This document shows positions 26,652 to 58,426 of a DNA stretch of 64,000 nt, piece by piece (the stretch's first letter is position 1; every line of letters begins with the position of its first letter). The position numbers and the translations under genes were made by a program. The stretch covers positions 310,001 to 374,000 of the forward strand of contig CAUYUJ010000114.1 in assembly GCA_963575745.1 (NCBI GenBank). Reading direction: 5' to 3'. The stretch comes from Prorocentrum cordatum. Its lineage: Eukaryota. Under the pieces are notes generated by a model. It was given only the letters and a program-made list of their open reading frames with translations. It ran no database searches and had not been told where the DNA came from.

Positions 26652-26757
26652 GTCCTTCTCCTCCATCGTGGGACCGAACGGCAGCGGCAAGTCCAACACG
26701 ATCGACGCGCTGCTGTTCGTGTTCGGGAAGCGCGCGAAGAAGATGCGCCTCAACAAG
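26652..26757 (+). CDS. SMC4: SMC4 exon C (Walker A)
   Basis: SFSSIVGPNGSGKSNTIDALLFVFGKRAKKMRLNK. AAG|GC donor. Confidence 0.92.
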
Positions 26758-28777
26758 GCTGCGCGCGACCAGTGGTCTCTCAGGAGGACGGGTTACCAAT
26801 GTCGCCAATTGCCCCTCCCTCGTTTTTGCCGTTAAGGGGCCTCCAGGGAGGCTCTCGTCGCCACGGTTGGTTTCTTCTCGAACTCATCTTGGTCAGAACG
26901 CACCCCAGGAGAGGTCCGAGGATGAGCCGTATCGACATTTTTTGTTTTCCGAGTCTGTCCGCTAACGATTGGCGGAGCACGCGAAGGGGGAGGCCCTGGA
27001 GGCTTCTGAAAGGGTTAGATGAAGGGAGGGTTTCTGCGAAGACACTTGCTTTCTTGGAGGCCCTGCATGTTCTTAGAAGGCCGCCCCCCCGCAGCGCCAC
27101 CTCGTTCTGCGCGCCGCCAGTGATGACCCAGATATCCGATGTCTTGAAATGAACATGACGTGTTTGTTGATTCGAGGGGTCCAGGCATCCTTTCTCGAGG
27201 ATGAAAGGGTCGATGTTTTTGAACCGTTTTGAGGGGTGCCCGCTGTTATGGCTGCACGCGGTTCGAGAGCCTGGCCAGGATGGACCCCAGCAGGGTTCGG
27301 GGAGCGGATTTGAAGGGATGTTGATCGACCAGCTACAGTCAGCCCGTATCAGAAGGATGCGCGGTGAGGATGTCAGGGCCTTTGAGGCCCATGTGTGCGT
27401 TTTTCGAACGAGGTTAGCCAGCGAAAGTCGCTAAGGATGGGCCGAAGGGGCAAGGATCCAAGGGTACCCTTGCGAAGGTTGCCCATCCTTACTGTGCGGG
27501 TTGGCTGTAGCGTTGTGGAAGTCGATCAATGGAGAGGAAGCATGCTGCCGAATAGTTCCCAGACGTCTAAAACATGTGTTAAACATGTTGTAGACATGTA
27601 AAGAACATAAGTAACAGATGTTTCGATTTTTCCGGCACGTGGAGCACACTTAAAGTTCAATGATAGGACCGTTAGGGTGCCCATTTTCGTGGCAGAGAAG
27701 GCTCCTGCAGCTCGGCAGCCAGCCCGAGGGGGCCGCCCGAGTGGAGCCGGGGAGGTCGGGACAGCCTCGCGGCACAGGGGGTCACTAAGGTGCCAAAGAG
27801 CTCTCGAGCTGTGATTGCGCAAGTTTCCTGCCTGGCTCTAGGGCGTGCCTTGCGACTTCTAGATTCGAGCCTCGGTGGCATCCACAGGCCCATCCTTCCT
27901 GTGCGGGTGGACTGCAGCGGCATGAAAGACTGAGGACTCACGATGCTCGCAGTGCTCGGCCTTCGGGGGCCCCCGCCAGGACAGGGCACCGGGATGGGAC
28001 CTCGGCCCCGGGGGGAGGCCCGAGACTGCCAGGGAGCCCCGCCTGGGAAGCACCCAGACGCTGGATGCTCGGGCACGTATACGTACACACTGTTCATTCC
28101 TAGTTATTCGGGAGTTCTTTAGTTTTTTTTTGGGGGGGGGCAAGATCCTTTCATTTCTAATTGTTAGATCCTGGGCCTCTTCCTGGCCACTAGCGGGCCA
28201 GAAACGATTGGAAACGAGCACAAAACCCGAAATGAACGCGATTAGAAGTGAACGACGTGTACCACGCTTTCCCTCCTGCGTTCCCCCAGGGGAGGAGAAG
28301 GGAAAAGGGGAGGGAGGGAGAGGGCACAGCGCTCCAGAAGGGAGGGAGGGAGGGAGAAGGGAAACGGGGAGGGAGGAGGGAGAAGGGAAAAGGGGAGGGA
28401 GGGCAAAGGGGGAGGGAGGGAGGGAGAAGGGACAAGGGGGGGGAGGGAGGGAGGGACAAAAAGGGGAGGCCCCTCTCCCTCCCGCGTCCAGGGGAGCGTC
28501 GACGGCCCCAGGGCCCCGCCGCAGACCGCACCGGCCCAAGGGCGCCCACGCCCTGGCGAGCGGCGAGCGGGCCCTCCCTCCCTCCCTCCCTCCCTCCCCC
28601 CTCCCTCCCCCCCTCCCTCCCCCCCTCCCCTCCCTCCCCCCCTCCCCTCCCTCCCCTCCCCTCCCCCTCCCCCTCCCCCTCCCCCTCCCCCTCCCCCTCA
28701 CTGAACGGGACTGGTTCGCCAAACCAGGTCAGGTCAGGTCAGAAGCCTTGCGCCAGACGGCGCGCGAGCAGGGTGTC

Positions 28778-28943: not shown

Positions 28944-31597
28944 CAGGGTGAAACAAGACGACTGCGCCTGTGAATGGGCACTTCGGCAATCCATCCAAAC
29001 CAGTGAGTGCAGCCCTCCATCGGAGAGGCGTCCCGCAAGAATCCGCTTTATGGGGGTAGCGGTGTAAGAAATGCATGTGGGGGGGGTGATCGGGGGCGCG
29101 CGCGGGGAGAGACCGTGGGGGGGCCTCGACCCAGGGTCCCTCGTCTCCTGGCCCCTGCTGCCCCCAGGCCCCCCAAACCGCCTGGGGACCCGAAGGGGTC
29201 GCCGCCCCCTGCGCTGGATAGGGCTTCTGGAGGCCCCCAGGGAGGCGAGGGATGCCCTCCCGCCTGACCGCCCCTTGCCCGCGCTGGGCCCCGAAGGCCC
29301 CGAGTCGGCCCGTGAGCACCTCCTGTGTCTTGCTGGCGCTGTGGCATTTTTCCGTCGGCGTGGCTCTCGGGCACAGCCGAGTGCTGCCAGGTGCGGCCAG
29401 GTCCAGACTTTGCGGCATTTGTCTCGACGAGGTGTCCAGCAAAGGACGCCACCTGCCTGAAGGCCCTTGAGGCTGGCAAAGGCCCCCTATCATGGGGGAG
29501 TGGGTGGGGAACCCACGCCCCCTCCCCGTCATGGATGGGGCCTGGCGTCGTCTTCGGTAGCTCGCCCGACTCGAGCCGCGTTCTGCTTTTCCTCGTCGAG
29601 TTGTGCGTGCTCGCCTTTTCCCGCTTCTCTGCCTGCCCCACCGTCCCTCTTTTCCAGCCCGCTCGGACGTCTTGGTTCCTCCTCCTCCTCCTCCTCCTCC
29701 TCCGCCTCCTTCCGTCTCCTCCCGTCTCCTCCTCCTCCTCCTCCTCCTCCTCCTCCTCCTCCTCCTCCTCCTCCTCCTCTCCTCCTCCTCCTCCTCCTCC
29801 TCCTCCTCCTCCTCCTCCTCCCTCCCTCCCTCCTCCCTCCTCCTCCCGTCTTCTCCTCCTATTCTGCTCCTGCTCCTGCTCCTCCTCCTCCTCCTCCTCC
29901 TCCTCCTCCTCCTCCTCCCCCTCCTCCTCCTGTCTCCTTCCCGCCCTGCTCCTCCTCCTCCTGTCTCCTTCCCGCCCTCCCCCTCCCTCCGCCCTGCGCA
30001 TCCACCTCTCTCTCGTGGGGCTGCTCCGTGACGGGCCCCGGCCCCCTCCAGAGACCGAGCCCGAGGGTCGACCGGGTTGCCTCGACGCGCGCCCGCCGTG
30101 GGCCAGGCCAGGGGGTGGGCCCATGGGCGATCTCGTGGGCCGGTTTCGTTTCGATTACGTTTTGCATTAAAGTCAGGAGGGAGAATAACACACAGACGCA
30201 ATTCGTCGTCGATTCCCCAGAAAGTATAGGAAAATATGAGAAGTGGGGGGGAAGGTAAAATTTCAAAAAAAAGAAAGACTATGGGGAATATGTTTATCTG
30301 TGTGTATTTATTTGTGTGTCCTGGGGCCCCTTCATAAACGGTGTGTTGGCGATTTCGTGGGCCGTGTTCGTTTCGATTACGTTTTGCTTCAAAGGCGGAT
30401 CGAAGACAGAACGAGGGAAAACGAAAACAAAACGACAACGAAAAACACCGTTCAGGTTCAGCCCTGCCCAGGGCCGCCAGACACCGATGCGGGGAAAGCG
30501 CTGCCCCCCCGAGGAAAAGCTATACAGGGTCCGGCTTGAATGAGGAACGCTTCCTTTTCAAACGGGGCTCGGTCGTTCCTCTGGTCAGCATGCGTTCCGC
30601 TACCTTTTTGGCGGCGAGCCCCCTCTGGTGTTCCTTCGGGCTTCCTAGACTTACTTGGAACAAAGGGGCTTCGTTCCTTATTGATCGTTCCTTAGGTCAG
30701 GCCGAATATTGGAGGGTCGGGACTTCTGGGGACCCCGCATTGAAAAGAGCAAGGCGTCGGATCCTTAGGTTGGGCGTGCAATATGAGCAGGTTCAGATCC
30801 AGTCGTGCCGATGAGGGTGTTCCAGGTGGCCCTGGAGGGGGGTACCCTTTTTGGTCTGCGGCGAGTTGGGCAAACTGCAGCACACCGAAAACGAAGAGCA
30901 CTGTGAAGCTCGAGCCCTTGTCTGGACCTGCTCCCTGGATCGGCTTTTTTCCCCGAGCCCTCTTCTGGGGCTCACGCCACGGGGGTCCGCGCAAACGGGG
31001 GTCAGCAGCAGATCTAGATCCCCTCTGTCGGGGGTGGACAGAACCCCCAACAGTGACACGTCGATTAGTGAATTGTCCGTTTTCGGTTCTCGAGAGGGCG
31101 CCGTGGCCGTCATGTTCCAGGCTTGCGCCCGCCAGCTTTGGCCCTCAGGTCGTTTTCACTAAACCACGTTTTACTGAAGGGGAGTCTGTCCATCCCCGAC
31201 TCTGGCTGGCCCGGTTCCCTTTTTCCGCCCTCCGCGGATCTGGGCTTGTCAGCTATCGGCCAGCCCGGCTTTGCGACAGGGCCTCGGCCGGCCCAGGCTT
31301 CGGGCGGACCCGGGGAGAAGTGCGCCCCGAGTCGTTGGACGGCCCCAGGGCCCACGAGAGGCTCCCGGAGGCAGAGATTGTGCAGAAGCCTCTTCCTCCT
31401 CCTCCTCCTCCTCCTCCTCCTCCTGCTCCTCCTCCTCCTCCTCCTCCTCCTCCTGCTCCTCCTCCTCCTCCTCCTCCTCCTCCTCTTCCTCCTCTTCCTC
31501 TTCTCCTTGCTCGACAGAAGGCCGGGGTCGAGGGCCAGCCCCCCGGCCCGTCCCGAGCCCGGCGCCGGACGGGCTCGCGGGGGGCCCCCGCGGAGAG

Positions 31598-31657
31598 GTG
31601 TCCGAGCTCATCCACCAGTCTGCGGAGCTGCCCAACGTGCCGAGCGCGAAGGTGGAG
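31598..31657 (+). CDS. SMC4: SMC4 exon D
   Basis: gag|GTG acceptor. VSELIHQSAELPNVPSAKVE matches the SMC4 SELIH.S motif. GAG|GC donor. Confidence 0.85.
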
Positions 31658-31675
31658 GCTGCGGGGTCGCCCCTC

Positions 31676-32131
31676 ATGATGATGATTACGATGACGACTG
31701 GGACGACGGCGACGACGACGGTGATGATGATGCTGATGGTGATGATGATGGTGCTGCTGATGATGATGATGGTGATGGTGATGGTGATGGTGATGGTGAT
31801 GGTGATGGTGATGGTGATGATGGTGACGGTGACGCTGATGTTTCTGGCGATGGTGATGGTGATGGTGATGATTGTTGTGGTGATGATGGTGATTATTGTT
31901 ATGATGATGATTCCGATGATGACGATGACGATGATGATGCTGCTGCTGATGATGATGACGTTGTTGCTGATGATGGTGATGATGATGCTGATGATGATGA
32001 CCATAATCAGCATCATCATCATCATCATCAGCATCATCATCATCATCATTATCATCATCATCATCATCATCATCACCATCATCATTATCATCAGCAGCAG
32101 CAGCATCATCATCAACATCATCATCATCATC
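31676..32131. repeat. (GAT)n tract switching to (CAT)n; further (CAT)n at ~34035-34210
   Basis: Directly visible. Confidence 0.9.
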
Positions 32132-32924
32132 ACGCCCACTTGGTCAAGCACCTGCTTGCCCGTTGGCCGCTCGGCTGCACCTGCGGCCGCCCCTCCCCCC
32201 TCCCGCTACATGGTCTCGTCCTCGCGCCTGGAATGGGTGATTCAGCAGCTGCTGCTGTGTCGTCAATGCCAAGTCCGGATTAACAGCCACGAGGACGAGT
32301 TCGTCCGTTCCTTGGTTCTCTCCGCCAAGTTTGACGTGTGGATAAACAACACCATCGCGGCTCTTGTCATGGCAGAACTTCGACTGCGTTTGCAGCGTTA
32401 TGTCGTCGCGGATCATGGTCGTCAGACCTCAGTTGGCGAATCACATGTCAGATCATAGTTAGACATCATGCTCCTCCTGGAGGAAGTGCGGGCCACGATG
32501 ATGCTGATGATGACGATCTCCCCGACAAAGGAATGGACCTTATACCGATGATGACGATCATGATTCGGCTGGTGATCGACGTCGTGGAGACCGCGGAGCT
32601 GATGCAGGAGGCCTCCCTGGTGGCGCAGGTCCTGGCGCTCTTCGTGGACCTGATCCTTGGGCGTCTGGCAATGGTGATCCGTGGGCTGGCGGCCCTGTTC
32701 GCAAAGCCCCACTTAGGCGTAGGCCTCAACGTGGTGTACGTGGTGATGCAATGGCTGTGGGTTGTCCTCGAGGCGCTGTCCCTCTTGAGCTTTGAGTGGT
32801 CCCGACTTTCCCTTTTAACACAAGGTCTCGCGGGCTTCTCCCTGAATATCGTGATTCTGCCCGTGGGCTACCGTGGGCCGATCTGCATAGTGCAGAAGAT
32901 TATCTTGTTGAAGCCCCTGCGGAT

Positions 32925-33465
32925 CTGCATGAGCTTTCAGATGGTCCTGAGCTTCTTGATGATCGTGAGCTTCTAGATGGTTGTGGTCTTTCGGATGGGC
33001 TTCTCGGTGGGCTTCCGGACCTTGCTGAGCTTCCAGATGGTTGTGCGTTTCCAGACGGTCGTGAGCTCCTTGGTGGGTTTCCTGATGGTCCTGTTCACGG
33101 GCTTCCTGATTGTCGTGAGCTTCCAGATTGTTGTGATCTCCCCGATGGTCGTGATGCTTGTCGGCTTCGTGCTGGTCGTGGGCTTCAAAATGATGTGGCT
33201 CCAGATGGTCGTGAGCTTCCAGATGGTCGGGAGCTTCCAGATGGTCGTGAGCTCCAGATGGCCCTGAGTTTCCAGATGGGCTTCTCGGTGGGCTTCCAGC
33301 TGGTCATGAGCTTCGAGATGGGCGTGCGCTTCCAGACGGGCGTGAGCTCACTGGTGTGCTTGCAGATGGACTTGGTTGTGTAATTCCAGGTGGTCGCGAG
33401 CTTCGATATAGGTGTGAGCTTCCAGAAGATCGAGTTGTTTGTCGGCTTCCAGACGGTCGTGAGAC
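32925..33465. repeat. Degenerate 18-bp GAGCTTCCAGATGGTCGT repeats
   Basis: Recurrent unit visible. Confidence 0.75.
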
Positions 33466-33840
33466 TCTCCTGGCACAGGCCGCGGAGGAGATGAAGGAGG
33501 TCGTTCGCCGGGCCCTCGGTCATGTGGCGCATGATGATGAAGCCTATCGTGCCGATCTCGGAGGTTTTCGCCCCGCAGGTTCTGCTGGCCACGGTTCGGA
33601 ACAGGAGCGGTGCAGAGAGTTATTTCGAAGGATTGGAGTGATGCCGCATCGCGGTGTTGATCTTAGCAGTGCCTTGTAATTTGGCGGCCCTTTTCTCCTC
33701 AGCTTCCTCCTCGCTGCCTCGTGCGTGACTGAATGCCGCACGCTATTCAATGTGTGTTCTTCGGAGAGAGCTGGCGTTACGACGGTTTTTTTTGTTCTTT
33801 GTTTTCCGGCCTGCGAATTGGCGCTTCTGTTTCTTACTTC

Positions 33841-34008
33841 AGCGACAGCGCTGGGATCAGCGCGTGTGAGAAGGGCGAGCAGTGACAGCGGGCCCTGGCG
33901 CTACCGAGAGAGATGCAGGAGGCGAAGCTGGTGCCCCACGTCTTCAACGACAGCGCCGATTTAGCGCGTGCGAGAAAAGTGGGCGGTGGCAGCAGGCGTT
34001 CTCGTTGC
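33841..34008 (+). pseudogene. Pentatricopeptide repeat (PPR) gene fragment, about 1.5 repeats
   Basis: SDSAGISACEKGEQ*QRALALPREMQEAKLVPHVFNDSA/SACEKSGRWQQAFSL. There is a TGA at the conserved Trp position and one frameshift. Confidence 0.75.
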
Positions 34009-34032
34009 GGTGCCAGGGGGTGATTACCGAAC

Positions 34033-34073
<41 letters not shown>

Positions 34074-35949
34074 GTCATCATCATCATCATCATCGTCATC
34101 ATCATCATCACCATCATCATCATCATCGTCATCATCATCATCATCAGCATCAGCATCATCATCGTCAGCGTCAGCATCAGCATCAGCATCAACATCATCG
34201 TCGTCGTCATAATCCAACGGTCTCGCGCCTCGAACAGGAGTTCGGAAGGAAGGGCTCAGATCCCCCCGCGCCGTGAGCAAAGTCGAGGCGGGAGTTGGTT
34301 GGCAGGTTTCGGCCTCCGGGAGCCCTCAATTACCGGGCCCTGGGGCTCTCCCTAGACGAGTGGAGATGAACAGCCGTTCTTGGGGAAGAGTTCCTGGCGA
34401 AGGTGGAGGAGGATACCTCAGTGCCTTCTCGAGGGGCGTGCTTCGAGAAACAAGGAGTAATGAGAGGGGGAGGAGGGGAACGAGACAATGCCGGGTGATG
34501 GGGGCTGGAGTGGGAGGGTTGGACTTGGACGTGCCTCGATCAAGGAGGATAGGGGAGTGACGATAGCGCAGGCAGGAGGAAGGAGGGAGGAGCAGGCAGG
34601 CACGAGGGATGAGGGAGGAAGGGGTAGGAGGGAGAAGAAGCCAGGCAACTGGGAGGATAGGGGGACTGCTCATAAAGGAGAGGCCGGGAGATGAACGAGG
34701 AATCCGGATGGGTGGAGGAATCATGATGATATGAGATGGGATGACATGAGATGAGATGAGATGAGATGAGATGAGAAGAGATGAACAAGCGGCCTGGAGC
34801 CAGATTCGGTCGGGCTACACTGGCCCGCCGTCGGGTGCCTGCGATGAGGCCTCCCCGAAATCGTGGAGGGGCTCGTCTGGCCCCTCCTCGGCTTCCTTTT
34901 TGAGGAGCCTCGAGCCGTCCGCACGGTGGCGGGAGCTCTCCCTCCAGGCCGACAGCCCTCAGCACCTCGGCTCGGGACGTCGCCCCATCCCACTGTGCCC
35001 CCCCCCCCCCCCCCCGAAGCCCCGCCTCCCCCGCGTCCTGAGACGAGGCGTTGGGGGCAGGCTCACTAGAGCCAAACGAGGCAGCCACTCGCACGCGCAC
35101 AGCGTACGGGACGCCTTCGGGGGTCTCCAACCTACGTAAGGTCCTTCGGAGCTTCCTTGAAAACAGGGTACTTGCCAGCCTTGATCTGGTGGAGCTGCGC
35201 TCTCAGGCCCGAGGCCGCGTGGTCGCGGAGACACGGGCGGAGAAGGGCACGAGGGGGTCCTTCCACGCTGAAGAAGGTCCCACACGCACAGCAGACAGTG
35301 ATGGCCTTGCCATCGTCCCGACCTGACCTCTGGCACACACGCGCGTGTGCGGCAGCGGGTGGCCGTTGAGACGACAACCCATCGGTCGGAAGAAGTAGGT
35401 AGAAACATGAAGTAGGAAGGCGTTGGAAATAGATTGGGCTTCCGCACGCCTCCTGAAGAGGAAGGAAGAGGGAAAACCACTCGACTCTTGAAGTAGGAAG
35501 GCGCTGAAAGTAGATTGGAATCTGGGCATCCAAAAATACCTACTTTCAACGACCGATGGGTAACCCATGTCACGGTCGCCCCTCGACGCAGGCTGTGCCT
35601 CGGGCGGGGCCCGCGGCCGTGCGCCTGGCGGCGCCTCGTCGGCGTCTGCACGGCCAGCAGCATAGAGCTCCGTGAGATCGGCATGGTCCTAAAGTCAGGA
35701 GGGGAAGAAACACACGGACACAATGAATCGTCCCTTCCCGCAGAAAATGTGGGAACATCTGGGAAGTGGGGGGGAAGACGAAAACCCAGAACATGTAGGA
35801 AAATATGGGAATACATCATTTTATTTGTGTGTATTGATTCGTGTGTCCTTGGGCCCCTTCATAGGGGGCCTCCCCGTCCCCAGCCAGCCCGTGCAGCCGC
35901 CCACTCTACCGCCCAGGCCCCACGGGAGGCCCCGACCAGGCCTCGCCAG

Positions 35950-37230
35950 AGGTGACACTCGCTCTTCTCCTCTCAGGAGCGACGGCCACTGTTCGTCAAG
36001 GCTGCCGCTGCTTCTTCGCCGCTGGCTCGGCCAGGCACTTCGCGACCTCGGCCTGGTAACTCTCGGCCTCCATGGCTCGCTTGAGACCAGTCTGGAAGGA
36101 GGGGTCCTCGAAGTCGGCTTGGGTGCGGGGCTTGTGCGGGACGCCGGGCCCATGTGACCCAGCCCCTCCTGCAGCAGCGAGAAACAAACACACAGACACA
36201 ATTAATCGTCGACTCCCCAGAAAATATGGAAAACTATAGGCAGCGGGAGGAAGACAGGAAACCCAGACAATATGGGAAAGTGTGGGGAATCCTTTTCTTT
36301 GTGTGTATTTATGTGTGTGTGTGTGTGTCCCAAGGCCCCTCCTGCAGCGCCACTCCCATGGCCACCAGGGGCACCGCCAGCAGGCTGGCTAGCAGCCCCA
36401 GCAGCACGCTCGGCCGCCGCCTTGGACTCCCGCTGAAGGCGCTTGAGGGCCTCGGGCGCCGCCTTGCCCTCGGCGCAGGCCGCCCCACCATGCCAGACCT
36501 GGGTCGCCCACATCCTGGAAGTTGTCCCTGTGCAGCATCTTCGTGTGATGTTCCAAGTCCTTCCGCACCTCATCGATCTGCAAGGTGGTCTCCTCGATGC
36601 TACGCTGCAGCTCGCGCTGCTGGGACTCGAACTGCTGGAGGCGCTCCCCAAGCTTCGCGACCTTGCGAGCGGCGTTCTCGACAAGGTACCTTGCCGCCAG
36701 CGCTGTCGGGGGCTTCGACTCGAGATCTCTGGCCTTGGCCTTCTCGGCCTTGGCGATCGCCGACGTGCCGATGCCGTGCCCTCTGAGGAAGCCAAGCGCC
36801 TGGGCATAGGAGGGGTCCCCGCCCGTGGTTGACGAGGTCGAGCGCGAAGCACCCCCCCCTGCGCCGCCGGCTGTGCCCGCGCCGACGTTGGTGAGCGACG
36901 CCGGCTGCGCCGTGAGATCCTTGAGCTCCTTTGCCAGACGAGACTGCTCCCCACTGGCGTTGGCACCTCGACCTCCTGGGCGCACCTTGGCTGCACGGGC
37001 ACGGGCGTCCTGCTGGACTCGCACGGGCGCAGCTTCTCCACGTCCACGGCACCTGAGCCGACTGGCCCAGTTGCCGCTCTCTCCACACGTGCCGCACCCC
37101 CTGACTGGGTATCTGGGGCCTGGCCAAACATCGCCTTCCGCGCCCATGAAGCCGGTCAAGGGCTCTGATATGCAAGAACTTGGCCCGCAGGCACGAGCGC
37201 CACTTCGAAGTGCGCACCTGGAACACTCTC
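35950..37230 (-). mobile_element. Relic of a non-LTR (LINE) ORF1-like gene: zinc finger plus coiled coil, interrupted by the 165-bp element
   Basis: CGTCGESGNWASRLRCRG(R)GEAAP is a degenerate RanBP2-type finger, followed by the heptad region KVAKLGERLQQFESQQRELQRSIEE. Confidence 0.45.
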
Positions 37231-38603
37231 GAGTGCGGAATGGTTGATGGAGGAAGGATGAGGAAAGACGACGGAGCAAGGAGCGACGAGGAGTCAGGAA
37301 GGTGGAAGGAGGCGCTAGAGAGGTCGAGGGAGGAGGGATGAGAAAGGAACGGTGGGAAAGGAACGAGGAGCGAGGGAGGGGGAATAAGAAAGGAGGAAGA
37401 CAGAAGGGTCTCCACCTGGCCACTCCAGTCTGGCGTCATTGCCTGCATGCTGAGGAAAGGAAGCTTGCGAGAGAGGCTAGGCAAGACGGCCAGTTTACAC
37501 CATCAGAGGTAGCATGACGAACGTAAGACCTAGATATCCGGCGTCATGAACACCGAGAGAGCTGCTTTGTTCCTCGATCAGGGTCTCCAGTTGCCTTGCG
37601 CTGGTCTCTGGGACCGCCACATCCAGCCAGGAACGTTTGCTTAGCGTGTCGCGCCGCCAGTTCTGGCCCACCACGCTTGGTGCGACACGCCAAAAATCAG
37701 AGCGTGGATTACCTACCCCGCTTTCGCTGCCAGGTAGTCTCGTCTGCCTCTTTAAAATGGCCTTCCTTTCCAAGGCTCCACGCCTCGGGCTCTCCTCGGC
37801 CTCCCGCCCCGCGGAGCGGAGCGACGTGCCATCCTCCTGCAGGGCACGGCGTGCCGCCCGGGCTGCCGCCGCGACGCGCCCATCGGGAGCCTCGATATGG
37901 GGGTCGATGCACACGGGGGTCTGCCCAGGGCACGTGGATCGATGCACTCGGGAGCCTTGACCTGGGAAACTATGGGGAATTCTCTTATTTGAGTGTATTG
38001 ATCTGTGTGTCCTGGGGCCCCTTCCGTCCGCTCGGCACGTCGTGTCTGCTTCCTGTCCGCAGCCGTGCGCGAGCAGTCCTGCTCCGCCGCCCCCGAGCGG
38101 GCCTCGCTGCTCCGCCCCCCGCTGCTCCGCCGCCACCGAGAGGGCTCGCAGAGGGAGCCGGGGAGCAAAGGCAGCGTCAACGGTACACATCGGGAGCCTT
38201 GAGACGGGGGTCAATGCAGACCGGGGTCAGCCAGGGCACTGGACCCTTCAGGATCCTGCGAAGACCCCCTCTGGCTGACCAGGGTTTGCGAGCCGCTCGT
38301 GGCCGCGAGGCGGCCGCGCATATCGGTTGACCCGGGTTTGCGGAGTTCTGCGGTGCAGTTTTGTGCCTTGCGTTGCAGTTTTTTGGTTTCCTGCTGACCC
38401 GGGTCTGGACTGACCCGGTTTCAGAAGATCCCCGAGCTAAGCAAAACTTCCCCACCGTGAGCTACTTGGAGCGAGAAACGGTCATGGGAAGGGGCCCTCG
38501 CTGCACAAACAAAAATGCGGCGCCGCGTGTCTGAGGAGGGTGAACGGTTTTCCAAGGTGGTTGACATGCGTTCGGGTGTTCCCAGAGGTGGCATTTGCGC
38601 AAG

Positions 38604-38625
38604 GACGTAGACATCTTGGCCCAAG
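38604..38625 (+). other. Relic dinoflagellate spliced leader (DinoSL)
   Basis: CGTAGACATCTTGGCCCAAG versus SL core CGTAGCCATTTTGGCTCAAG gives 17/20 identity. It ends 51 nt before the ATG at 38677. Confidence 0.7.
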
Positions 38626-38676
38626 CTTTGGATCGGACCGCACCTCCTTTTGATTCACGATCCGGTCGATCGACCA

Positions 38677-38943
38677 ATGTCCTTGGGAGCGGCTGCCGTG
38701 CGGGACCTCGACCTCGTGTTCTGGGGCGCGACTGGTTTCACAGGCCGCCTCAGTGTGGCAGCCATGGCAGGGCACGCAGCCTCGTTCTATAGTTGCCATC
38801 TGCCCAACGTCGGATCGCCACGCGGCGGCGGCAGAGTGCGGTATGCCCTCGCCGGGCGCAACGAGGAGAAGCTGCGCCGGGTGCACGCCGAGTGTGGCTG
38901 CGGACCCGACGTGGACATTTTCGTTGCTGGCGCCGAAGACGAG
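38677..38943 (+). CDS. Saccharopine dehydrogenase-like oxidoreductase (trans-acting enoyl reductase-like family), exon 1
   Basis: MSLG..DLVFWGATGFTG (Rossmann motif)..YALAGRNEEKL. GAG|GC donor. Confidence 0.88.
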
Positions 38944-39114
38944 GCTGATGGGCCTGTTTTCCACCACCACCACCACCATAAGTTGGAGGGAGAGGAGGTC
39001 TTCCTCCTCCTCCTCCTCCTCCTCCTCCTCCTCCACCTCCTCCTCCTCCTCCTCCTCCTCCACCTCATTCCCCCCTCCAATTTATGGTGGTGGTGGAAAA
39101 CAGGCCCACCAGAG
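38944..39114 (+). mobile_element. Introner (MITE acting as a GC-AG intron), 171 bp, in frame and stop-free
   Basis: TIR TGGGCCTGTTTTCCACCACCACC..ATAA.TTGGAGGG. GAGGC is directly repeated at the junctions. Removal restores AEDE|AALAAFV. Confidence 0.85.
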
Positions 39115-39669
39115 GCCGCACTTGCCGCCTTCGTCTCACGCACCAAGGTGGTAGTGGCTCTCGCAGGGCCTTTCAAGTTCCACTCTGACATCGTCGTGGG
39201 CCTGTGTGCCAGGCTCGGGACGCACTATGTTGACATCACAGGCGAGGTGGCCTGGGTCCGGTCTGTAATCGACCGCTACGACGAGGTCGCAAGGTCCACT
39301 GGCGCCCTGATCTGCAACTGCTGTGGATTCGACAGCGTCCCTTTCGACCTCGGAGCTCAGTTCGCAATCAATCGGCTGAGGGCTCGCGGCACGGCGTCGT
39401 CGATACGGCGCGTCTCCGCCTACAGCGTCATGGGAGGCCCGTCCGGGCCTGGCATGCTGATCTCTGGCGGCACCCTGACGTCTGGGGCCTCCATGCAGCA
39501 GGTGCAGCTGACCAAGGGCGTCGACAAGGACGACCCCTTCCTGCTGGGCGGCCTGCCCAAGGGCGGGCCCCGCGAGGAGGACACGGACGCCTCCACCCAC
39601 GAGGTCCGGAAGCTGGGCGAGGGCCTCTACTGCGGCCCGTCCATGATGCACAGCGTGAATTCGCGCCTG
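39115..39669 (+). CDS. Saccharopine dehydrogenase-like oxidoreductase, exon 2
   Basis: VVVALAGPF..HYVDITGEV..CCGFDSVPFDLG..ISGGTL..MHSVNSRL. CTG|GT donor. Confidence 0.9.
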
Positions 39670-39847
39670 GTGCCCAGAGCATGCAAGACAGTACCGGTAC
39701 CGCCTCTCGTGCCTCGTTCTCGTCTTTTGGGGCCTCCGGGGAGGCCCTCGTCGGCACCGCGGAGTTCGCCTCTCGAGGTGCGGGCGAGGACGCTTCTCGG
39801 GAGCGGTCCCGGGAGCAGCGGCACCGGTGCCTTCTCGCTCCCCACAG

Positions 39848-40063
39848 GTGCGCCGCTCCGCCAGGCTGCTCCGGTGGGGGCCCGCCTTCAACTTTGCGGA
39901 GGTGATGCCCGTGCCCAGCGAGAGGGCCGCGGCGAAGCTCGTGAAGCGGGCGCGCGCCCCCGCGCCTCCGGAGGTGGTGGAGCAGCTGATGGCGGCGGGC
40001 CGCCTGCCGAAGCCGGGGGAGGGCCCGCTGCCGGAGGTGCGCAGGGTCACGCGGTTCGCCACG
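39848..40063 (+). CDS. Saccharopine dehydrogenase-like oxidoreductase, exon 3 (3' boundary approximate)
   Basis: cag|GTG acceptor. VRRSARLLRWGPAFNFAE..LPKPGEGP. Confidence 0.8.
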
Positions 40064-40685
40064 GTTCTCGAGCGGGTGTTGCCAGGGGGGGGTCCTGGGC
40101 CCAAGGTGATCTGGGCCCTCCTCCTCCTCCTCCTCCTCCCTCCTCCTCCTCCTCCTCCTCCTCCTCCTCCTCCTCCTCCTTCTCCTCTTCCTCCTTCTCC
40201 TCCTCCTCCTCCTCCTCCATTTCCTCCTCCTCCTCCTCCTCCTCCCTCCTCCGCCTCGGCGGTGCGGCTCGATGTGGAGCCCGATTTGCTCCACCCTGGC
40301 GTCGCCGATGCATCGGCGATGCGGCGCGATTTGGCGACCCCGTCTACTCGGACCGCGTTAGGGAGGCCTCGTGGTGAGTGACGGCAGAAAGCAGGTTCAG
40401 CTCCACTGGCAGTCGCGTGGCAGCTTCCCGCGTGAGGTCGCGCATGAGCGCCCTCGTCCTCCACGCGGCGTGCCGTGCTGGCGGCCCGCGTCAGCCGCGG
40501 CGTGGGGTCGCTGTGCCATCTCGCGTAAGACCCTTCTCTTTTCGTCGCCCGGTATCTCCCCGAGATTCGCGGGGAGGCCCAGATGGCCTCCGGGGCGCCC
40601 CCATCACGAGGCCCAAGGTGGGCCGGAGGTGCTCCAGGATGGCGCGAGAAGAGTCAGGGGCAGCATGGGCCATGGCCACGTCTAG

Positions 40686-40764
40686 CAACCTCCGTGTGGA
40701 GTGCACCGCGGACGACGGGAGCAGCCTGGTGGCAACTGTGCGGGGCGGCGAGGCGGGGTACGAG
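40686..40764 (+). CDS. Saccharopine dehydrogenase-like oxidoreductase, exon 4 (5' boundary approximate)
   Basis: LRVECTADDGSSLVATVRGGEAGYE. GAG|GA donor. Confidence 0.7.
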
Positions 40765-41709
40765 GAGATCGGAGGAGGAAACAAGGCACCGATACCCGCT
40801 ACCGTAGAGAAAGAGAGAGAGAGAGAGACAGAGAGACGTGCACGTCAGAGGGGCACTGGCACGACGGTGAGGCAAGACACTACGGGACAGTTCCGGCGGC
40901 CCCGCTGTGAAACAAGCGTGAATATCTCGAAAGCGCGTATTCTTATTTCAGGGCCCCAGCGGATCTCGAAAAAAGCCTTAAAGCACCCGCAGAGCCAGGG
41001 CGGGGGCCAGAGGCAAGGGTCACGGGAACGGGTCAATCAACACATTGGCATGAATCGTCACACGTAACACCAAGCTGTACAGCAGGTATGAGAGGGAGGA
41101 GGAGGAGGAGGAGGAGGAGGAGGAGGAGGAGGAGGAGGAGGAGGAGGAGAAGGAGGAGGAGAGATGGAGGAGGAGAGGAGAGGAGGAGAGGAGGAGGAGG
41201 AGGAGGAGAGGAGGAGAGGAAGAGGAGGGGGGAGGAGGAGGAGGAGGAGGAGGAGGAGGAAGGCAGCATGGATGTGCGCACATCAGAGTAGGGATCGGCC
41301 TGGCACCAGGTGCCCTGCAGAGGACTCTTACCGGCCGATGGCCCTGGGGGCGCACAGAGGCCCTGGGGCACCTCAGGGAGCTCAACAATCGACGAGGAGG
41401 AGGAGGAGGAGGAGGAGGAGGAGGAGGAGGAGGAGGAGGAGGAGGAGAGGGAGATGGAGACGTTGAGGAGGAGGGAGGAGGAGGAGGAGGAGGAGGAGGA
41501 GGAGGACGAGGATTGTGTCCTGAGATTGCACCCGAGAGCAAGATGCTTGACCGTGTGCGTCTGCTGCACCCTCCCCTCGCTTTCGCCTTCTCGGGCCTCC
41601 AGGGGCGCCCTCGTCGCCACGGCCGGGTTCGCCTCGGAATCACTGTGGAGACGTACCCGCGAGAGACCCGGGGAGCAGCCGTATCGGCACCATGTGGCTC
41701 CTCCGCGAG

Positions 41710-41949
41710 GAGGCCAGCAGGATGGTGCTGGAGGCCGCGCTCGCCCTGGTGGAGGAGCCCCACTGCTGCCCCGGCGCGGCCACCGGAGGCTGCCTCACGA
41801 CCGCCGCAGCCTTCGGCGAGACGCTCATCCGCCGCCTGGGCCAGGTCGGCATCGCCTTCGCGGTGGAGTCTCGAAGCGTCGCGGCGGTGGTCTCGGAGGC
41901 CTTCCGGGAGGGCGCCGAGAGAGCCGCGGCGGCCGGGTCGAAGCTGTGA
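41710..41949 (+). CDS. Saccharopine dehydrogenase-like oxidoreductase, terminal exon
   Basis: EASRMVLEAALAL..GGCLTTAAAFGETLIRRLGQVGIAF matches the family C-terminus, ending in TGA. Confidence 0.85.
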   Translation, partial: EASRMVLEAALALVEEPHCCPGAATGGCLTTAAAFGETLIRRLGQVGIAFAVESRSVAAVVSEAFREGAERAAAAGSKL

Positions 41950-42498
41950 GTGCCGCGCCGGCGTGGTCCTGGGAAGGCTCACGACCCACAGCCCCAGGAG
42001 TCCGGAAAAAGAAGAAGGAAATATTAGCACAGTAACTCGTTGCAGGAGCATGATTTCTCGGAGGTCTATGCGGATCTCTTCGATCGGCGCCGGGACCCCT
42101 GGCGGCGCATTCGGCACCGCCCCTGGCACGCTGGGGGTCATCGCCGATCCAAGAAATATCTACCTTAAAAAAAGACGTGACCTTGGCCGAAGGTGACTTC
42201 GGCTTTCTCAGGGCAGCCCAGATGGCCTCCAGAGCATCCCTCACGAGGCTCCCGAGGGCCTCGAAGATTGCCCGAGAAAAGTTGGGGATCGCTTCCGAAT
42301 GCAGGAGCTTCCAATTGGCTGTGTAGTTCGAGTGATGCCCAGTGGGATGCGGTCCAAGCCACACTTCGCAACCATCGCCAGGCCCTGCCATCCTCGGATG
42401 CAAGTGCTTCCGAGGCTGGACTTCTCCTCGCCATGCCCGTCCCCGCTCTGCCCCGCCACAGCTGGTGGCGGGGCGGAGGTAGGGCAGCCACGACCGAG

Positions 42499-42654
42499 GT
42501 GACGTTCCAGGACATCATGGACACCGGCGACGGGCCCGAAGACTACGAGATCGTCGAGGGATCCACGCTCTGCGTGGGCCGCGAGGCGTTCCGGAACAAC
42601 CAGTCCAAGTACTACATGGACGGCAAGGCGAGCAACTTCACCGAGGTGACCCAG
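42499..42654 (+). CDS. SMC4: SMC4 exon E
   Basis: VTFQDIMDTGDGPEDYEIVEGSTLCVGREAFRNNQSKYYMDGKASNFTEVTQ. CAG|GC donor. Confidence 0.9.
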
Positions 42655-43595: not shown

Positions 43596-43792
<197 letters not shown>

Positions 43793-46277
43793 AGAGACAC
43801 AATTCATCGTCGATTCCCTGGGAAAATATGGGCAGTGGGGGAGGGAAAAACAGAAAGAAACCCAGAACATATGAGAACATCGGGAATCGTGTTTTTTGTG
43901 TCTGTTTATCTGTGTGTCCTGGGGCCCCTTCAATCTGCTCGGCTCGTCGTGTCTGCTTCCTGTCCGCAGCCGTGCGCGAGCAGTTCTGCTCCGCCGCCCC
44001 CGAGCGCGCCTCGCTGCTCCGCCGCCCGCCCCACCAGGGAGGCGAGAGGCCTCGCAGAGGGAGCCGGGGAGCAAAGGCGGCGTCAACGGTACACATTGTT
44101 CATTTCTAATTTTTCCGAAATAGGGGTCCACATGCGAACCCTACCCCTACCCCCCCCACGATTTCTGAGTTGGAGGGTTGGGTTCACTGGGAGGAGGAGG
44201 CCGCCGTCCCGAGCTGCATGGTCGGATGCATTTGGCCGAGTCCTGCGCGTGCTTCAAGGTCTGGGTGGTATCTTGCAGGCAGCTTGGGTGGCTGGGTCCT
44301 GGCCGTACAACCGCTTCCTCTCTTTGCGCAAAGCTGCCGCCTTATGAGGTGCGCGCCAGCAATTGGCTAAGTATGGTCGCAAGCTTTGGTCAGAGCCGAG
44401 CGTACTGATTGGTCAAGGGCTTTTGTGGTTACGATGTGTAGCTGATTGATCAAACAACACTGCCATACCGCCCCTGCCCATGGCACTGATGCGAGCGTGT
44501 CGTTTATAATCGTCCTTGTACCCCCCATGTCTGGCCCAACGTCACTACCTCCAACGACGTGTACGCCAGCGCGGAGAACCCATCAGCGTGTGCACTACTG
44601 CACAGTCGCATGGCGTCTGTGGACGGAGGCGAGAGAGTAAAACACGCCGACGGGCTTCCGGCGGCGGCATGCCGTTCGTACCTCAGGAGAGGGAAAAACA
44701 CACAGACGCAATGAATCGTCGATGCCCAGGAAAATATGTCAAGCAGTGGCGAAGCGTCCTGCCTCGCCTATAGCCATAACAAACAATGTTCTAAGAACCT
44801 TTTGTGGTTTCCACGAAATGTTCTTAGAACACTTCTGGCGGAGTCTGTCTTGTTTTAGTACATCGGGTTTACGTGCTAAGCACATTGGTGTTGTTTTGTT
44901 TTAAACGTTTTTTGGTTCTAAGCACATGTCGTGGTAGAACTATCGGAATGCCGGGACGGTCGGTCCCTGCCCAAATATGGGAAAAGATGGGAAGTGCGGG
45001 GGGAGACGAAAATCCAGAAAGTATGATAAAGTATTGGGAATGTTGGTATTTGTGTGTTTTCATTTGTGTGTCCCTGGGCCCCTTCAACATCCTTTTCCCC
45101 TCCCGAGAAAGTCAGGATCAGTGATTTTGCCAGCCTTCAGGCAGCGAGCGGCGTGCAGGAATCAGAGCCAATGCTGTTGCTAGGGTCCCAGGAACACACC
45201 CCTCAACCCCCAGGATGCTGGCTTCGCTGGGCTTGCCCTTCGCGGCGCAGCGACGTCGGGAGGAGGAGGAGGAGGAGGAGGAGGACCAGTGCAAATCGAA
45301 AACGCATCAACGACGTTGACTCTCCAGTTTCCCTTGTCATGCGCCCCCATCAAGAATGATTATTAATTACGGAGAGTTGCCAATTAGAAGAGAACAGGTT
45401 GAGGATCTTCATCCGCGCCAACAGTCTGAGGATTTCCACGCAGCAGATAAACGTGTCTGTTGCGTCCTGACGATCGTAGACCGTGCCATAACTCTACAGC
45501 TGGAAGGTTCAACACCGCGAGTCAGCTTGACTGCTGCGTCCTGGCAGCATGAAATCTGAACCATACGAATCCTTGGGACCTGCCCTCCATCCTTAGAGTT
45601 GCTTCAGACTTTCAAGACGAATGCGCGCGCCGCCATGGCGAGAGCCACGATCTGAGAAGGACTTCCCTCCATCCATGCAGTGGCTGCCAGCTTTGGAGAC
45701 GAATGCGCGCGGTGCTAATGCTATACCATCAGTTTACCAGCCTGGAACATATCCCTATCCCTATGCTGGGCATCGCCCCATCACGTTGCCAATCTGTGGG
45801 ATTCCCTTATATTTTGAGGGCGCATCCCTAAGATTGTCATCGCCTTTGGGCGTGTCAATCTTAGGAGATAGGGATATGTTCGAGGCTGGTAATCAGTTTG
45901 ACAACGGCCCCAACGGCCCGCCCTCCAGCCGTGAAGCTCTTGCAAAGGTCAAGTGTCAGGGTCACCGGAGGGGAGGAAGTCTCTGGCGAAGCGCCCGGCA
46001 CGCCCTACCGACACGTCTGGGGCTGCGACAGGGCTTCGGGCCCCCCCCCACAGAGTCCTAAGGATACCCAAGGATTCTTGACGATCCTTTTGGATTCTGA
46101 GGATTCGCGCGGCTTCCTGATGATTCCGGGGGATTCCGCAGGATTCCTCCAGATTCCTAGAGGCTCCTCTGCGCCCCCATGGGTTCACACAGTTTCTAAA
46201 GGTTCTCTAGGATTATTTGCCATTCGCGAGGATGATCGAGAGTTCTAGGGGCTTCTAAGGGCTCCTAAAGGGTTCTT

Positions 46278-57642: not shown

Positions 57643-57673
<31 letters not shown>

Positions 57674-58356: not shown

Positions 58357-58426
58357 GAGCCCGCCCCAGCAGCCTCCAGATCCCCGTATTCTTCGGGCGG
58401 CGGAGGAAGAGGGGAGCTCTGGGACT

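What the first reader, a model, noticed from the sequence alone, without database searches (positions are those of the whole stretch)
38604..42021. Same-strand nested retrogene inside an SMC4 intron: spliced-leader relic plus regained introns
Seen: an apparently complete oxidoreductase gene (38677-41949) lies wholly within the 10.8-kb SMC4 intron 31658-42498, on the same strand. A 17/20 match to the DinoSL core ends 51 nt before its ATG, and an A-rich patch (~42005-42021) follows the stop. Established: SL relics in dinoflagellate genomes mark recycling of trans-spliced mRNA into DNA. Inference: a processed mRNA inserted into the SMC4 intron and stayed coding. It could be expressed without its own promoter, by SL trans-splicing out of the host pre-mRNA or excised intron. 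The host must then skip five internal exons and a 3' processing site.
Basis: partly seen in the sequence, partly recalled or inferred. Interest (0 to 1): 0.85.

Follow-up and report, generated by a model that had tools for sequence, protein, structure and literature searches.

The report
Recycled-mRNA gene inside SMC4 intron
A working oxidoreductase gene in the dinoflagellate Prorocentrum cordatum sits inside an intron of the SMC4 gene and bears the marks of having been copied back from a messenger RNA, but each of its features is already known to be common in dinoflagellates.

Summary
The window is Prorocentrum cordatum. A five-exon saccharopine-dehydrogenase-like gene (CDS 38677-41949, 449 aa, no stops) lies on the + strand between SMC4 exons ending at 31657 and starting at 42499. 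The 17/20 DinoSL match (38606-38625) is the best in the window, with 0.01-0.015 expected by chance.

Spliced RNA contigs of 1454-1486 nt from 4 of 4 runs (4 studies) start inside that relic. In 2 of them the fit begins at the relic's internal AG, with 3-4 non-genomic letters before it. By length they end at the A-rich patch. So this is an expressed retrogene tagged by a spliced-leader relic.

Intron 1 is an introner-type MITE with terminal inverted repeats, an AGG target duplication and two more copies in the window. That intron was therefore gained by insertion. The origin of the other three is open.

Not shown: RNA joining SMC4 exons D and E, a parental copy, and promoterless expression from the host pre-mRNA.

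Relic-tagged retrogenes (22-23% of genes), nested genes (6.5-25%) and introner elements are all published for dinoflagellates. Verdict: a clean new member of known kinds, of modest interest.

The parts
31595..31657 (+). SMC4 exon D (host), last exon before the host intron
   Evidence: Translation; its residues are colinear with homolog P0121 printed. tblastn itself did not list this 21-aa exon.
31658..42498 (+). SMC4 intron D-E (10,841 nt) that holds the nested gene
   Evidence: Bounded by exons D and E. Starts GC, ends AG. No Pfam family passing its cut-off on either strand apart from the nested gene. RNA joining D to E was not seen.
38604..38625 (+). DinoSL relic (18/22; 17/20 core), internal AG at 38609-38610
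   Evidence: RNA contigs start at 38609-38621 and keep the genomic variant letters (0 other letters in X1, X2 and X9).
38611..38676 (+). 5' UTR of the mature mRNA (15-nt truncated relic plus 51 nt); no ATG before 38677
   Evidence: contig pieces; sequence.
38677..38943 (+). Exon 1 CDS (89 aa, carries the WGATGFTG dinucleotide-binding motif)
38944..39114 (+). Intron 1 (171 nt, GC..AG, phase 0): an introner-type MITE (38945-39112) plus one copy of its 3-nt AGG target duplication
   Evidence: Joint skipping 171 nt in 4 of 4 runs. Inverted arms 38945-38990 and 39073-39112, 82.6% over 46 nt. Copies at 24430-24664 and 57551-57756. Other-locus contigs share the left arm.
39115..39669 (+). Exon 2 CDS (185 aa)
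39670..39847 (+). Intron 2 (178 nt, GT..AG, phase 0), with inverted arms 39683-39708 and 39813-39838 and a dispersed repeat at 39712-39772
   Evidence: Joint in 4 of 4 runs.
39848..40072 (+). Exon 3 CDS (75 aa)
   Evidence: Contig pieces end at 40072 in 4 of 4 runs.
40073..40701 (+). Intron 3 (629 nt, phase 0). Cut ambiguous within a GAG repeat: CG..AG, or GA..TG, AG..GG, GC..GA. None of these is canonical.
   Evidence: Homology. The contig fit reaches 40072, which excludes the annotated GC..AG cut at 40072.
40702..40764 (+). Exon 4 CDS (21 aa)
   Evidence: tblastn with 4 homologs.
40765..41709 (+). Intron 4 (945 nt, GA..AG, phase 0), with (GGA)n arrays and a dispersed repeat at 41569-41689
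41710..41949 (+). Exon 5 CDS (79 aa plus stop)
41950..42013 (+). 3' UTR; contig lengths place the 3' ends at 41991-42013
   Evidence: Arithmetic on contig lengths, done.
42005..42021 (+). A-rich patch (12 A of 17), a candidate poly(A) remnant
   Evidence: The richest 17-mer of the whole host intron.
42499..42654 (+). SMC4 exon E (host), first exon after the host intron
   Evidence: 82% and 78% identical to P0121 and P0122 in the tblastn stretch that holds the exon.

Best explanation
The unit from about 38604 to 42021 is a DinoSL-relic-tagged retrogene. A trans-spliced, polyadenylated mRNA of a saccharopine-dehydrogenase-like oxidoreductase was reverse-transcribed and inserted, in sense orientation, into what is now a 10.8-kb intron of SMC4 in Prorocentrum cordatum.

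The gene is still intact and expressed. Transcription starts somewhere upstream of the relic. A new spliced leader is most likely added at the relic's own internal AG (38609-38610), which leaves the 15-nt truncated relic at the head of the 5' UTR. The mRNA ends at the decayed poly(A) remnant.

After insertion the gene acquired at least intron 1. A MITE-type introner element landed at an AGG site, and it is spliced out together with one copy of its target duplication, which restores the reading frame exactly.

Shown: the gene structure for exons 1-3 and introns 1-2, its expression, where the contigs begin relative to the relic, and the mobile-element nature of intron 1.

Inferred: retroposition itself, the site of SL addition, the 3' end, exons 4-5, and that the host splices across the gene.
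For: (1) SL relic.
- 17/20 match, unique in the window, with 0.01-0.015 expected by chance. It has the top local score, 14 against a next best of 11.
- It ends 51 nt before the first ATG of the mRNA.

(2) RNA contigs.
- In 4 of 4 runs from 4 studies, one contig of 1454-1486 nt covers 38609/38615/38621-38940, 39112-39668 and 39847-40072, and runs on for 345-367 more letters.
- It keeps the relic's variant letters.
- In X1 and X2 the fit starts exactly at 38609, with 4 and 3 unmatched letters before it. That is what SL...CTCAAG joined after 38610 would give.
- PMC12014239 (passages) reports that assembled dinoflagellate retrogene transcripts typically begin with a truncated CTCAAG followed by the relic.

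(3) 3' end.
- Contig lengths put the 3' ends at 41991-42013.
- That abuts the A-richest 17-mer of the 10.8-kb intron.

(4) Coding integrity. The gene encodes 449 aa without stops. All four junctions are gap-free against homolog P0002.

(5) Intron 1.
- The homologous element has copies at 24430-24664 and 57551-57756.
- The three copies share the ends CTGATGG...CCA(T/C)CAG. Their flanking triplets are AGG/AGG, ACG/ACG and AAT/AGT (read from alignment A1).
- 9 listed pieces of other contigs match its left arm with 0-2 differences in 42-45 nt, but have other left flanks (loose ends at 38943-38946).
- So the element is younger than the relic (4 of 22 changed) and the A-patch (5 of 17 not A).

(6) No second P. 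cordatum homolog appeared among 544+32 hits of two searches.
Against: - No target-site duplication flanks the unit: best flank match is 5 nt, and 72.5% of 2000 random pairs score as high.
- No parental copy was found, and no whole genome is held, so the direction and source of the copy are unknown.
- Four introns sit in a supposed processed copy. Song et al. (PMC5585692, passages) report no intron-presence difference between retrogenes and source genes, and suggest that some retrogenes kept parental introns.
- The canonical SL itself was not seen on the contigs, only 3-4 unmatched letters that were not printed.
- Intron 3 has no canonical splice pair.
- The 3-7-nt repeats at the intron borders are a general dinoflagellate trait (PMC5032977, passages), so they do not themselves show recent gain.
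- All laid runs are assembled contigs, so starts and ends are soft evidence.
Confidence: 0.7

Rival explanations
1. The gene is a retrocopy of an incompletely spliced, SL-capped RNA, or a DNA-level duplicate of an older retrogene. Under this reading introns 2-4, and possibly 1, were carried in from the parent and not regained after insertion.
For: - Song et al. 2017 (PMC5585692, passages) found retrogenes that appear to keep parental introns. They found no intron-presence difference between retrogenes and source genes.
- Introns 2-4 have no full-length element copies in the window, only internal dispersed repeats.
- Their border repeats are a general trait (PMC5032977).
Against: - An SL-capped, polyadenylated template that kept four introns (1923 nt in total) is less likely than a spliced one.
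- Intron 1's arm matches other-locus copies at 95-100%, while the relic is 82% and the A-patch 71% intact. This points to insertion after retroposition, at least for intron 1.
Confidence: 0.2
2. The nested gene has no promoter of its own. Its mRNA is made from the SMC4 primary transcript by SL trans-splicing at the relic's AG plus polyadenylation at about 42010. Each host transcript therefore yields either SMC4 mRNA or oxidoreductase mRNA.
For: - The gene lies on the same strand as the host.
- The contigs include the relic, so transcription begins upstream of it and the relic's T-box (here TCTT) is not the start site.
- Polycistronic transcription resolved by trans-splicing is the usual working model for dinoflagellates (PMC10666404, passage).
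- The 3' end lies only about 480 nt before SMC4 exon E.
Against: - No RNA evidence links the upstream intron to the gene. The covered bins between 35334 and 38537 are short pieces, 95-99% alike, of high depth with foreign flanks, which means repeats from other loci.
- In A. carterae, nested-to-host expression ratios range from 0.07 to 14, and the authors read this as differential transcription of adjacent regions (PMC12584245, passage).
- SMC4 depth was not measured here.
Confidence: 0.22
3. The SL-like 20-mer is a chance match or part of a dispersed repeat, and the gene is an ordinary nested gene that was never an RNA copy.
For: - In a genome of several Gb, hundreds of 17/20 matches are expected somewhere (extrapolated).
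- The 12-mer TCTTGGCCCAAG recurs at 16839-16850, inside an unrelated hairpin element.
Against: - Only 0.01-0.015 hits are expected per 64-kb window. This one lies on the coding strand 51 nt before the ATG and coincides with the contig starts in 4 of 4 runs.
- The 46-nt region around it has no copy in the window above background; the best other score is 14 of 46.
Confidence: 0.04
4. The nesting is an assembly artefact, and the oxidoreductase gene does not really lie between SMC4 exons D and E.
For: No DNA run holding half or more of the words was found (0 of 24 rows), so the assembly could not be checked with reads. The region is rich in microsatellites.
Against: Five SMC4 exons (B to F) lie in order on one strand over 41 kb, with the nested gene between D and E. 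The source contig on record for P0001 is 1.5 Mb. The same MITE family occurs in three SMC4-region introns.
Confidence: 0.04

Closest known systems
DinoSL-relic-tagged retrogenes ('mRNA recycling'; Slamovits and Keeling 2008, recalled; Song et al. 2017 PMC5585692; PMC12014239)
   Same: - A relic of the 22-nt leader lies 50-100 nt upstream of the start codon.
- The relic is kept in the transcript from its internal AG onward.
- An A-rich tract sits at the 3' end.
- The gene is intact and expressed.
   Different: - It carries four introns. This is allowed by the literature but not the textbook picture.
- No parent was found.
- The relic's TTTT box is mutated to TCTT and lies inside the mRNA, so for this gene it cannot be the transcription start element proposed by Song et al.
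Nested genes in long dinoflagellate introns (Polarella glacialis PMC7245778; Amphidinium carterae PMC12584245)
   Same: It is a multi-exon gene lying wholly inside a long intron of a short-exon, long-intron housekeeping host, in a genome with unidirectional coding.
   Different: Those papers do not, in the passages I read, tie nesting to SL relics or to introner gain. Here the three occur together in one locus.
Introner elements / MITE-derived introns (Farhat et al. 2021 PMC7789003; Dougan et al. 2023 PMC10666404; Roy et al. 2023, seen only as a reference entry; Huff et al. 2016, seen only as a reference entry)
   Same: Intron 1 has terminal inverted repeats, a short direct repeat across the exon-intron borders and several copies. 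Splicing removes the element plus one target duplication.
   Different: - The donor is GC, made from the last base of the AGG duplication plus the element's first base.
- The arms are about 45 nt around a (TCC)n core, longer than the 8-20 nt used in the published screens.
- No transposase or autonomous partner was seen.
SL1-trans-spliced same-strand nested genes in nematodes (recalled, not looked up)
   Same: A same-strand gene inside a host intron receives a spliced leader.
   Different: In nematodes such genes generally have their own promoters. Here the promoter question is open.

Membership tests
DinoSL-relic retrogene | DinoSL or its relic encoded in genomic DNA just upstream of the coding sequence | tested here: met
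   38606-38625 matches 17/20, is unique in the window with 0.01-0.015 expected, and ends 51 nt before the ATG.
DinoSL-relic retrogene | Transcript carries the truncated relic (first 7 nt removed) directly behind a newly added leader | tested here: inconclusive
   Contigs of 4 of 4 runs contain the relic with the genomic letters. In 2 the fit starts at 38609 after 3-4 unmatched letters. The leader itself was not displayed.
DinoSL-relic retrogene | Poly(A) remnant at the 3' end of the copy | tested here: met
   42005-42021 has 12 A in 17, the richest in the 10.8-kb intron. Contig lengths end at 41991-42013. The tract is degenerate, so the support is moderate.
DinoSL-relic retrogene | Identifiable parental gene with fewer relics and other introns | tested here: not met
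   Only P0001, the window's own gene, is a P. cordatum hit in two protein searches. No genome is held. The absence is weak evidence, because the searches are word-indexed and the proteome is incomplete.
DinoSL-relic retrogene | Flanking target-site duplication | tested here: not met
   The best flank match is 5 nt, at background level. This is not required by the dinoflagellate literature I read.
Introner element (intron 1) | Inverted repeats at both intron ends | tested here: met
   38945-38990 against 39073-39112, 82.6% over 46 nt.
Introner element (intron 1) | Short direct repeat overlapping the exon-intron borders | tested here: met
   A 5-nt border repeat GAGGC. AGG is read as the target duplication from alignment A1.
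Introner element (intron 1) | Multiple homologous copies elsewhere | tested here: met
   Copies at 24430-24664 and 57551-57756. 9 listed contig pieces from other loci also match.
Introner element (intron 1) | Spliced from mRNA so that the frame is restored | tested here: met
   A joint skipping 171 nt in 4 of 4 runs. The junction is gap-free against homologs.
Nested gene | Lies wholly within one intron of a host gene whose flanking exons are joined in mRNA | tested here: inconclusive
   Position is met. The D-E joint was inferred from colinearity with P0121 and P0122 only. No RNA was laid there. A metagenome scan with an exon E string gave 0 hits.
Saccharopine-dehydrogenase-like oxidoreductase (Pfam PF03435) | NADP-binding domain above Pfam's gathering score | tested here: met
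   P0001 (exons 1-3 as annotated) scores 29.2 bits against a cut-off of 25.1. Single exons alone do not pass.
SMC4 (host) | SMC N-terminal ATPase head with Walker A; best relatives are SMC4 | tested here: met
   SMC_N scores 45.1 bits against a cut-off of 40 on the exon C frame. Relatives of 1224-1507 aa carry SMC hinge and head domains, and one is named 'structural maintenance of chromosome 4' by its source. The subfamily call rests on that one name and on my recall of SMC4 motifs.

The most novel reading that the evidence does not exclude
The retrogene has no promoter. It is released from the SMC4 primary transcript by spliced-leader trans-splicing at its own relic's AG and by polyadenylation about 480 nt before SMC4 exon E. 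One transcription unit would then be partitioned between a condensin subunit mRNA and an oxidoreductase mRNA. Introner insertions would since have turned the processed copy back into an intron-bearing gene. This would be a direct case of trans-splicing, rather than a promoter, rescuing a retrocopy inside an intron.
Probability: 0.2. Interest if true: 0.6.

Novelty: new member of a known kind. Interest (0 to 1): 0.3.

Why it matters
How dinoflagellate retrocopies become expressed is unsettled. One proposal is that the T-rich box of the relic leader acts as a basal promoter (PMC5585692, PMC12014239).

Here the relic lies inside the mature mRNA and its box is mutated. Transcription must therefore start upstream, either from an unknown intronic start or from the SMC4 promoter. 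The locus is small, single-copy as far as could be seen, and well expressed (contigs in 4 of 4 runs). That makes it a convenient test case for promoter versus host-transcript expression, and for dating introner insertion against retroposition.

It also shows a practical point. The public gene model is truncated and frame-shifted, because a canonical GC..AG pair was preferred over the non-canonical intron 3 that the RNA supports.

Tried and rejected
- Whole-genome search for SL relics or a parent: no genome is held.
The allowed part, 34800-40110, was laid instead.
- No support from public runs for the assembly: no row held half or more of the words.
- A second, upstream relic (38590-38603) was rejected. 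Its local score is 7, which 585 of 12,794 tiles reach.
- I rejected the idea that the relic is part of a repeat family shared with 42171-42192 or 16839-16850. The scores of 13-14 equal several unrelated hits. The 16839 copy belongs to a hairpin at 16844-16859 / 16944-16959.
- Target-site duplication around the unit: none found.
- Other genes in the host intron: 287 + strand frames across the window and 88 - strand frames in 26-46 kb gave no Pfam family above its cut-off other than SMC_N-related head domains and PF03435. Rfam gave 0 matches in the window.
- The P. cordatum SMC4 protein with exon E was not in the collection. The best hit is 88% identical, from another organism.
- Exact-string scans of metagenome contigs for exon E and for the 5' UTR gave 0 and 0.
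- Earlier notes of this scan: none for this genome.
- Supplements of PMC12014239, where a list of Prorocentrum minimum retrogenes might name this gene, could not be read.
- Covered bins upstream of the gene (35334-35689, 36046-36223, 37648-37825, 38182-38537) are short, high-depth pieces, 95-99% alike. I do not read them as transcription of this intron.


Full report
**What the window is.** Base composition is 55-75% G+C. Exon 2 of the gene in question is 100% identical to an NCBI protein labelled Prorocentrum cordatum, on a contig of 1.5 Mb (P0001). No whole genome is held for the window, so everything below rests on the 64 kb, public protein collections, four public runs and papers.

**The observation.** The 20-nt DinoSL core matches 38606-38625 at 17/20.
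- It is the only hit in the window. Shuffles give 0.01 expected hits.
- With the 21-nt leader it has 4 mismatches. No other site has 6 or fewer, although 1.37 such sites are expected. 200 simulated windows give 0.015 sites with 4 or fewer mismatches.
- By local alignment it scores 14. The next best of 12,794 tiles scores 11.
- It ends 51 nt before the ATG at 38677, and no other ATG lies between.
- The A-rich patch 42005-42021 (12 A of 17) is the richest 17-mer in the whole 10.8-kb interval.

**The nested gene.** tblastn with five homologs and a coordinate-built model give five exons: 38677-38943, 39115-39669, 39848-40072, 40702-40764 and 41710-41949.
- The product is 449 aa without stops. It is 63-67% identical over 430-436 aligned residues to six dinoflagellate proteins of 432-442 aa.
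- All four junctions are gap-free against P0002 and in phase 0.
- The annotated P0001 passes Pfam PF03435 (29.2 bits, cut-off 25.1).
- P0001 is only 367 aa. After exon 3 it reads exon 4 in another frame. That corresponds to a canonical GC..AG cut at 40072.
- The RNA contigs fit the genome through 40072, which fits the in-frame junction and not that cut.
- Intron 3 then has no canonical pair. The options are CG..AG, or GA..TG, AG..GG, GC..GA, depending on where within the GAG border repeat the cut is placed. Non-canonical sites and identically repeated intron borders of 2-11 nt are described for dinoflagellates (PMC5032977 and PMC7789003, passages).

**The host.**
- The frame at 26212-26832 passes SMC_N (45.1 bits, cut-off 40).
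- tblastn with two SMC4-type transcripts of other dinoflagellates (P0121, P0122) places the exons in order on the + strand: B at 16727-16819, C at 26638-26757, E at 42499-42654 and F at 58289-58360.
- The 21-aa exon D (31595-31657) is seen in translation. In P0121 its residues are directly followed by those of exon E.
- So 31658-42498 is an intron by homology, one of several giant introns of this gene.
- I could not show the D-E joint in RNA. The P. cordatum SMC4 protein is not in the collection (best hit 88% identical). An exact-string scan of metagenome contigs found nothing.

**Expression.** 20 of 24 listed runs hold part of the stretch. 16 of them hold 0.40-0.42 of the sampled words, roughly the exonic share, and none holds half. 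I laid four runs from four studies on 34800-40110. Results:
- Each run has one contig of 1454-1486 nt that covers exon 1 from 38609, 38609, 38621 or 38615.
- Each contig skips 171 nt (the joint can slide by 5, and GC..AG at 38944-39114 is the readable cut) and skips 178 nt (GT..AG, 39670-39847). It then continues past 40072 for 345-367 letters.
- Three of the four contigs have no differing letter. X17 has 3 in exon 3, among them G>A at 39948.
- X17 is on record as a poly(A) RNA library.

The gene is therefore transcribed and spliced.

**The 5' end.**
- The contigs contain the relic with its genomic variant letters, so the relic is part of the mature mRNA.
- In X1 and X2 the fit begins exactly at 38609, the A of the relic's internal AG. 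Four and three unmatched letters precede it.
- If a new leader ending in ...CTCAAG were joined after 38610, its last AG would fit 38609-38610 and the letter before would not. That is exactly this picture.
- PMC12014239 (passages) states that the relic is what remains after the first seven nucleotides are spliced out by a new leader. It also states that assembled retrogene transcripts commonly begin with a truncated CTCAAG followed by the relic.

I did not see the unmatched letters, so SL addition at this AG is inferred.

**The 3' end.** Subtracting the modelled exons from the contig lengths puts the ends at 42013, 42011, 42005 and 41991, at the A-rich patch. This rests on the unlaid exons 4-5.

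**Retrogene reading.** An SL relic where the mRNA starts and an A-tract where it ends give the unit the borders of an mRNA. This is the accepted mark of mRNA recycling in dinoflagellates (PMC5585692, PMC7245778, PMC12014239; passages).

Evidence against, or missing:
- There is no flanking duplication.
- No parent was found. Only P0001 is a P. cordatum hit among 544 and 32 hits, of which 120 and 32 are listed.
- The gene has four introns.

Song et al. found no intron-presence difference between retrogenes and source genes, and suggested that some retrogenes kept parental introns. Introns therefore do not exclude a retrogene, but they leave two histories open.

**Introns.** Intron 1 is a mobile element.
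- Its arms 38945-38990 and 39073-39112 are inverted repeats (82.6% over 46 nt) around a (TCC)n core.
- Two more copies lie at 24430-24664 and 57551-57756, in two other SMC4 introns.
- In alignment A1 the copies share ends CTGATGG...CCA(T/C)CAG. Their flanking triplets are AGG/AGG (here), ACG/ACG and AAT/AGT. This is my reading.
- The splice removes one G, the element and AG. That is the element plus one duplication, and it restores the codons.
- Nine listed pieces of other contigs match 42-45 nt of the left arm with 0-2 differences. They carry different sequence to the left of 38943-38946. The family is therefore transcribed elsewhere and is young.
- By comparison, the relic is 18% changed and the A-patch is 29% non-A. 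This suggests that intron 1 arrived after the retroposition. The numbers are small, so the argument is weak.

This matches the introner elements reported as enriched in P. cordatum introns (PMC10666404, passages; defined as in PMC7789003).

Introns 2-4 are less clear.
- Intron 2 has inverted arms 14 and 9 nt from its ends.
- They hold dispersed repeats that are also found in SMC4 introns: 39712-39772 and 41569-41689 resemble 26813-26937, and 40299-40370 resembles 58422-58647 and 26133-26188.
- Their border repeats are 5, 3 and 7 nt.
- Such border repeats are general in dinoflagellates, so their origin stays open.

**How the gene is expressed.** Because the relic is inside the mRNA, transcription starts upstream of 38609. 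The relic's T-box, here TCTT, therefore cannot be the start element proposed for retrogenes (PMC5585692). Whether the start is an intronic promoter or the SMC4 promoter cannot be told.
- The covered bins upstream are short, high-depth, 95-99% pieces with foreign flanks, so they are repeats from other loci.
- In A. carterae, nested genes average 2.07 times the host's expression, with ratios from 0.07 to 14 (PMC12584245, passage). That argues for at least partly separate control in general.
- If the host transcript is the source, trans-splicing at 38610 and cleavage near 42010 would each destroy an SMC4 pre-mRNA, so the two products would be alternatives.

**Comparison and novelty.** Each ingredient is published:
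- relic-tagged retrogenes, 22-23% of Symbiodinium gene models, and 477 in Prorocentrum minimum transcriptomes (PMC5585692, PMC12014239);
- nested genes, 6.5-8.4% in Polarella and 25% in A. carterae, including a six-exon gene in a long intron of a BUSCO gene (PMC7245778, PMC12584245);
- introner elements in this very genome (PMC10666404).

My searches did not turn up a paper that ties the three together at one locus. I read passages only, and three searches do not show that no such paper is in print. I file this as a new member of known kinds: a tidy, well-supported example and a usable test locus, not a surprise.

Noticed in passing
window 24430-24664 and 57551-57756 (and 38945-39112): A MITE family with ends CTGATGG...CCATCAG, arms of about 45 nt and a (TCC)n or mixed triplet core. 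Three copies lie in 64 kb, each flanked by a 3-nt repeat. Two sit in other SMC4 introns and one forms intron 1 of the nested gene. Other-locus RNA contigs carry the arm at 95-100% identity.
   Followed up: partly
window 40070-40075 and 40696-40704; protein P0001: The public P. cordatum gene model is truncated (367 aa) and frame-shifted after exon 3, as if a canonical GC..AG cut at 40072 had been chosen. The RNA contigs fit through 40072, and homologs support an in-frame junction whose intron has no canonical splice pair.
   Followed up: partly
window 16727-58360: The first roughly 270 residues of SMC4 are spread over more than 41 kb in short exons: B 16727-16819, C 26628-26757, D 31595-31657, E 42499-42654, F 58289-58360. 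The introns are about 5-16 kb. No other Pfam-recognisable gene was found in the frames scanned.
   Followed up: partly
window 39712-39772, 41569-41689, 26813-26937 (inverted partner about 26975-27010): A second dispersed repeat family occurs in introns 2 and 4 of the nested gene and just after SMC4 exon C. It contains the near-palindrome GGGCCTCC..GGAGGCCC.
   Followed up: no
window 40299-40370, 58422-58647, 26133-26188: A third repeat, partly palindromic (40299-40322), is shared between intron 3 of the nested gene and SMC4 introns next to exons C and F.
   Followed up: no
window 21527-21537 and 51067-51077: Two exact copies of the 11-nt leader core AGCCATTTTGG, both preceded by G, lie on the + strand inside other SMC4 introns. 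By alignment score they are within the simulated background of 0-6 tiles per window. They could be truncated relics. No convincing ORF was seen downstream of 51067, and only a 79-aa ORF lies about 370 nt after 21527.
   Followed up: partly
window 16839-16959: The 12-mer TCTTGGCCCAAG of the relic recurs 20 nt after the SMC4 exon B donor. There it is the arm of a hairpin (16844-16859 / 16944-16959), so it is unrelated to the leader.
   Followed up: yes
window 38182-38537, 37648-37825, 35334-35689, 36046-36223: Short stretches of the host intron are matched at 95-99% by very deep RNA contig pieces (word depth up to about 1750) with foreign flanks. These are abundant transcribed repeats of unknown kind.
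   Followed up: no
window 29677-29962, 31389-31500, 31722-32132, 34035-34214, 39002-39066, 40117-40257, 41095-41260, 41394-41512, 43599-43801: Dense triplet microsatellites (TCC/GGA, CAT/ATC, TGATGA) and an (AC)n array fill the SMC4 introns and the nested gene's introns. They blocked read laying.
   Followed up: no
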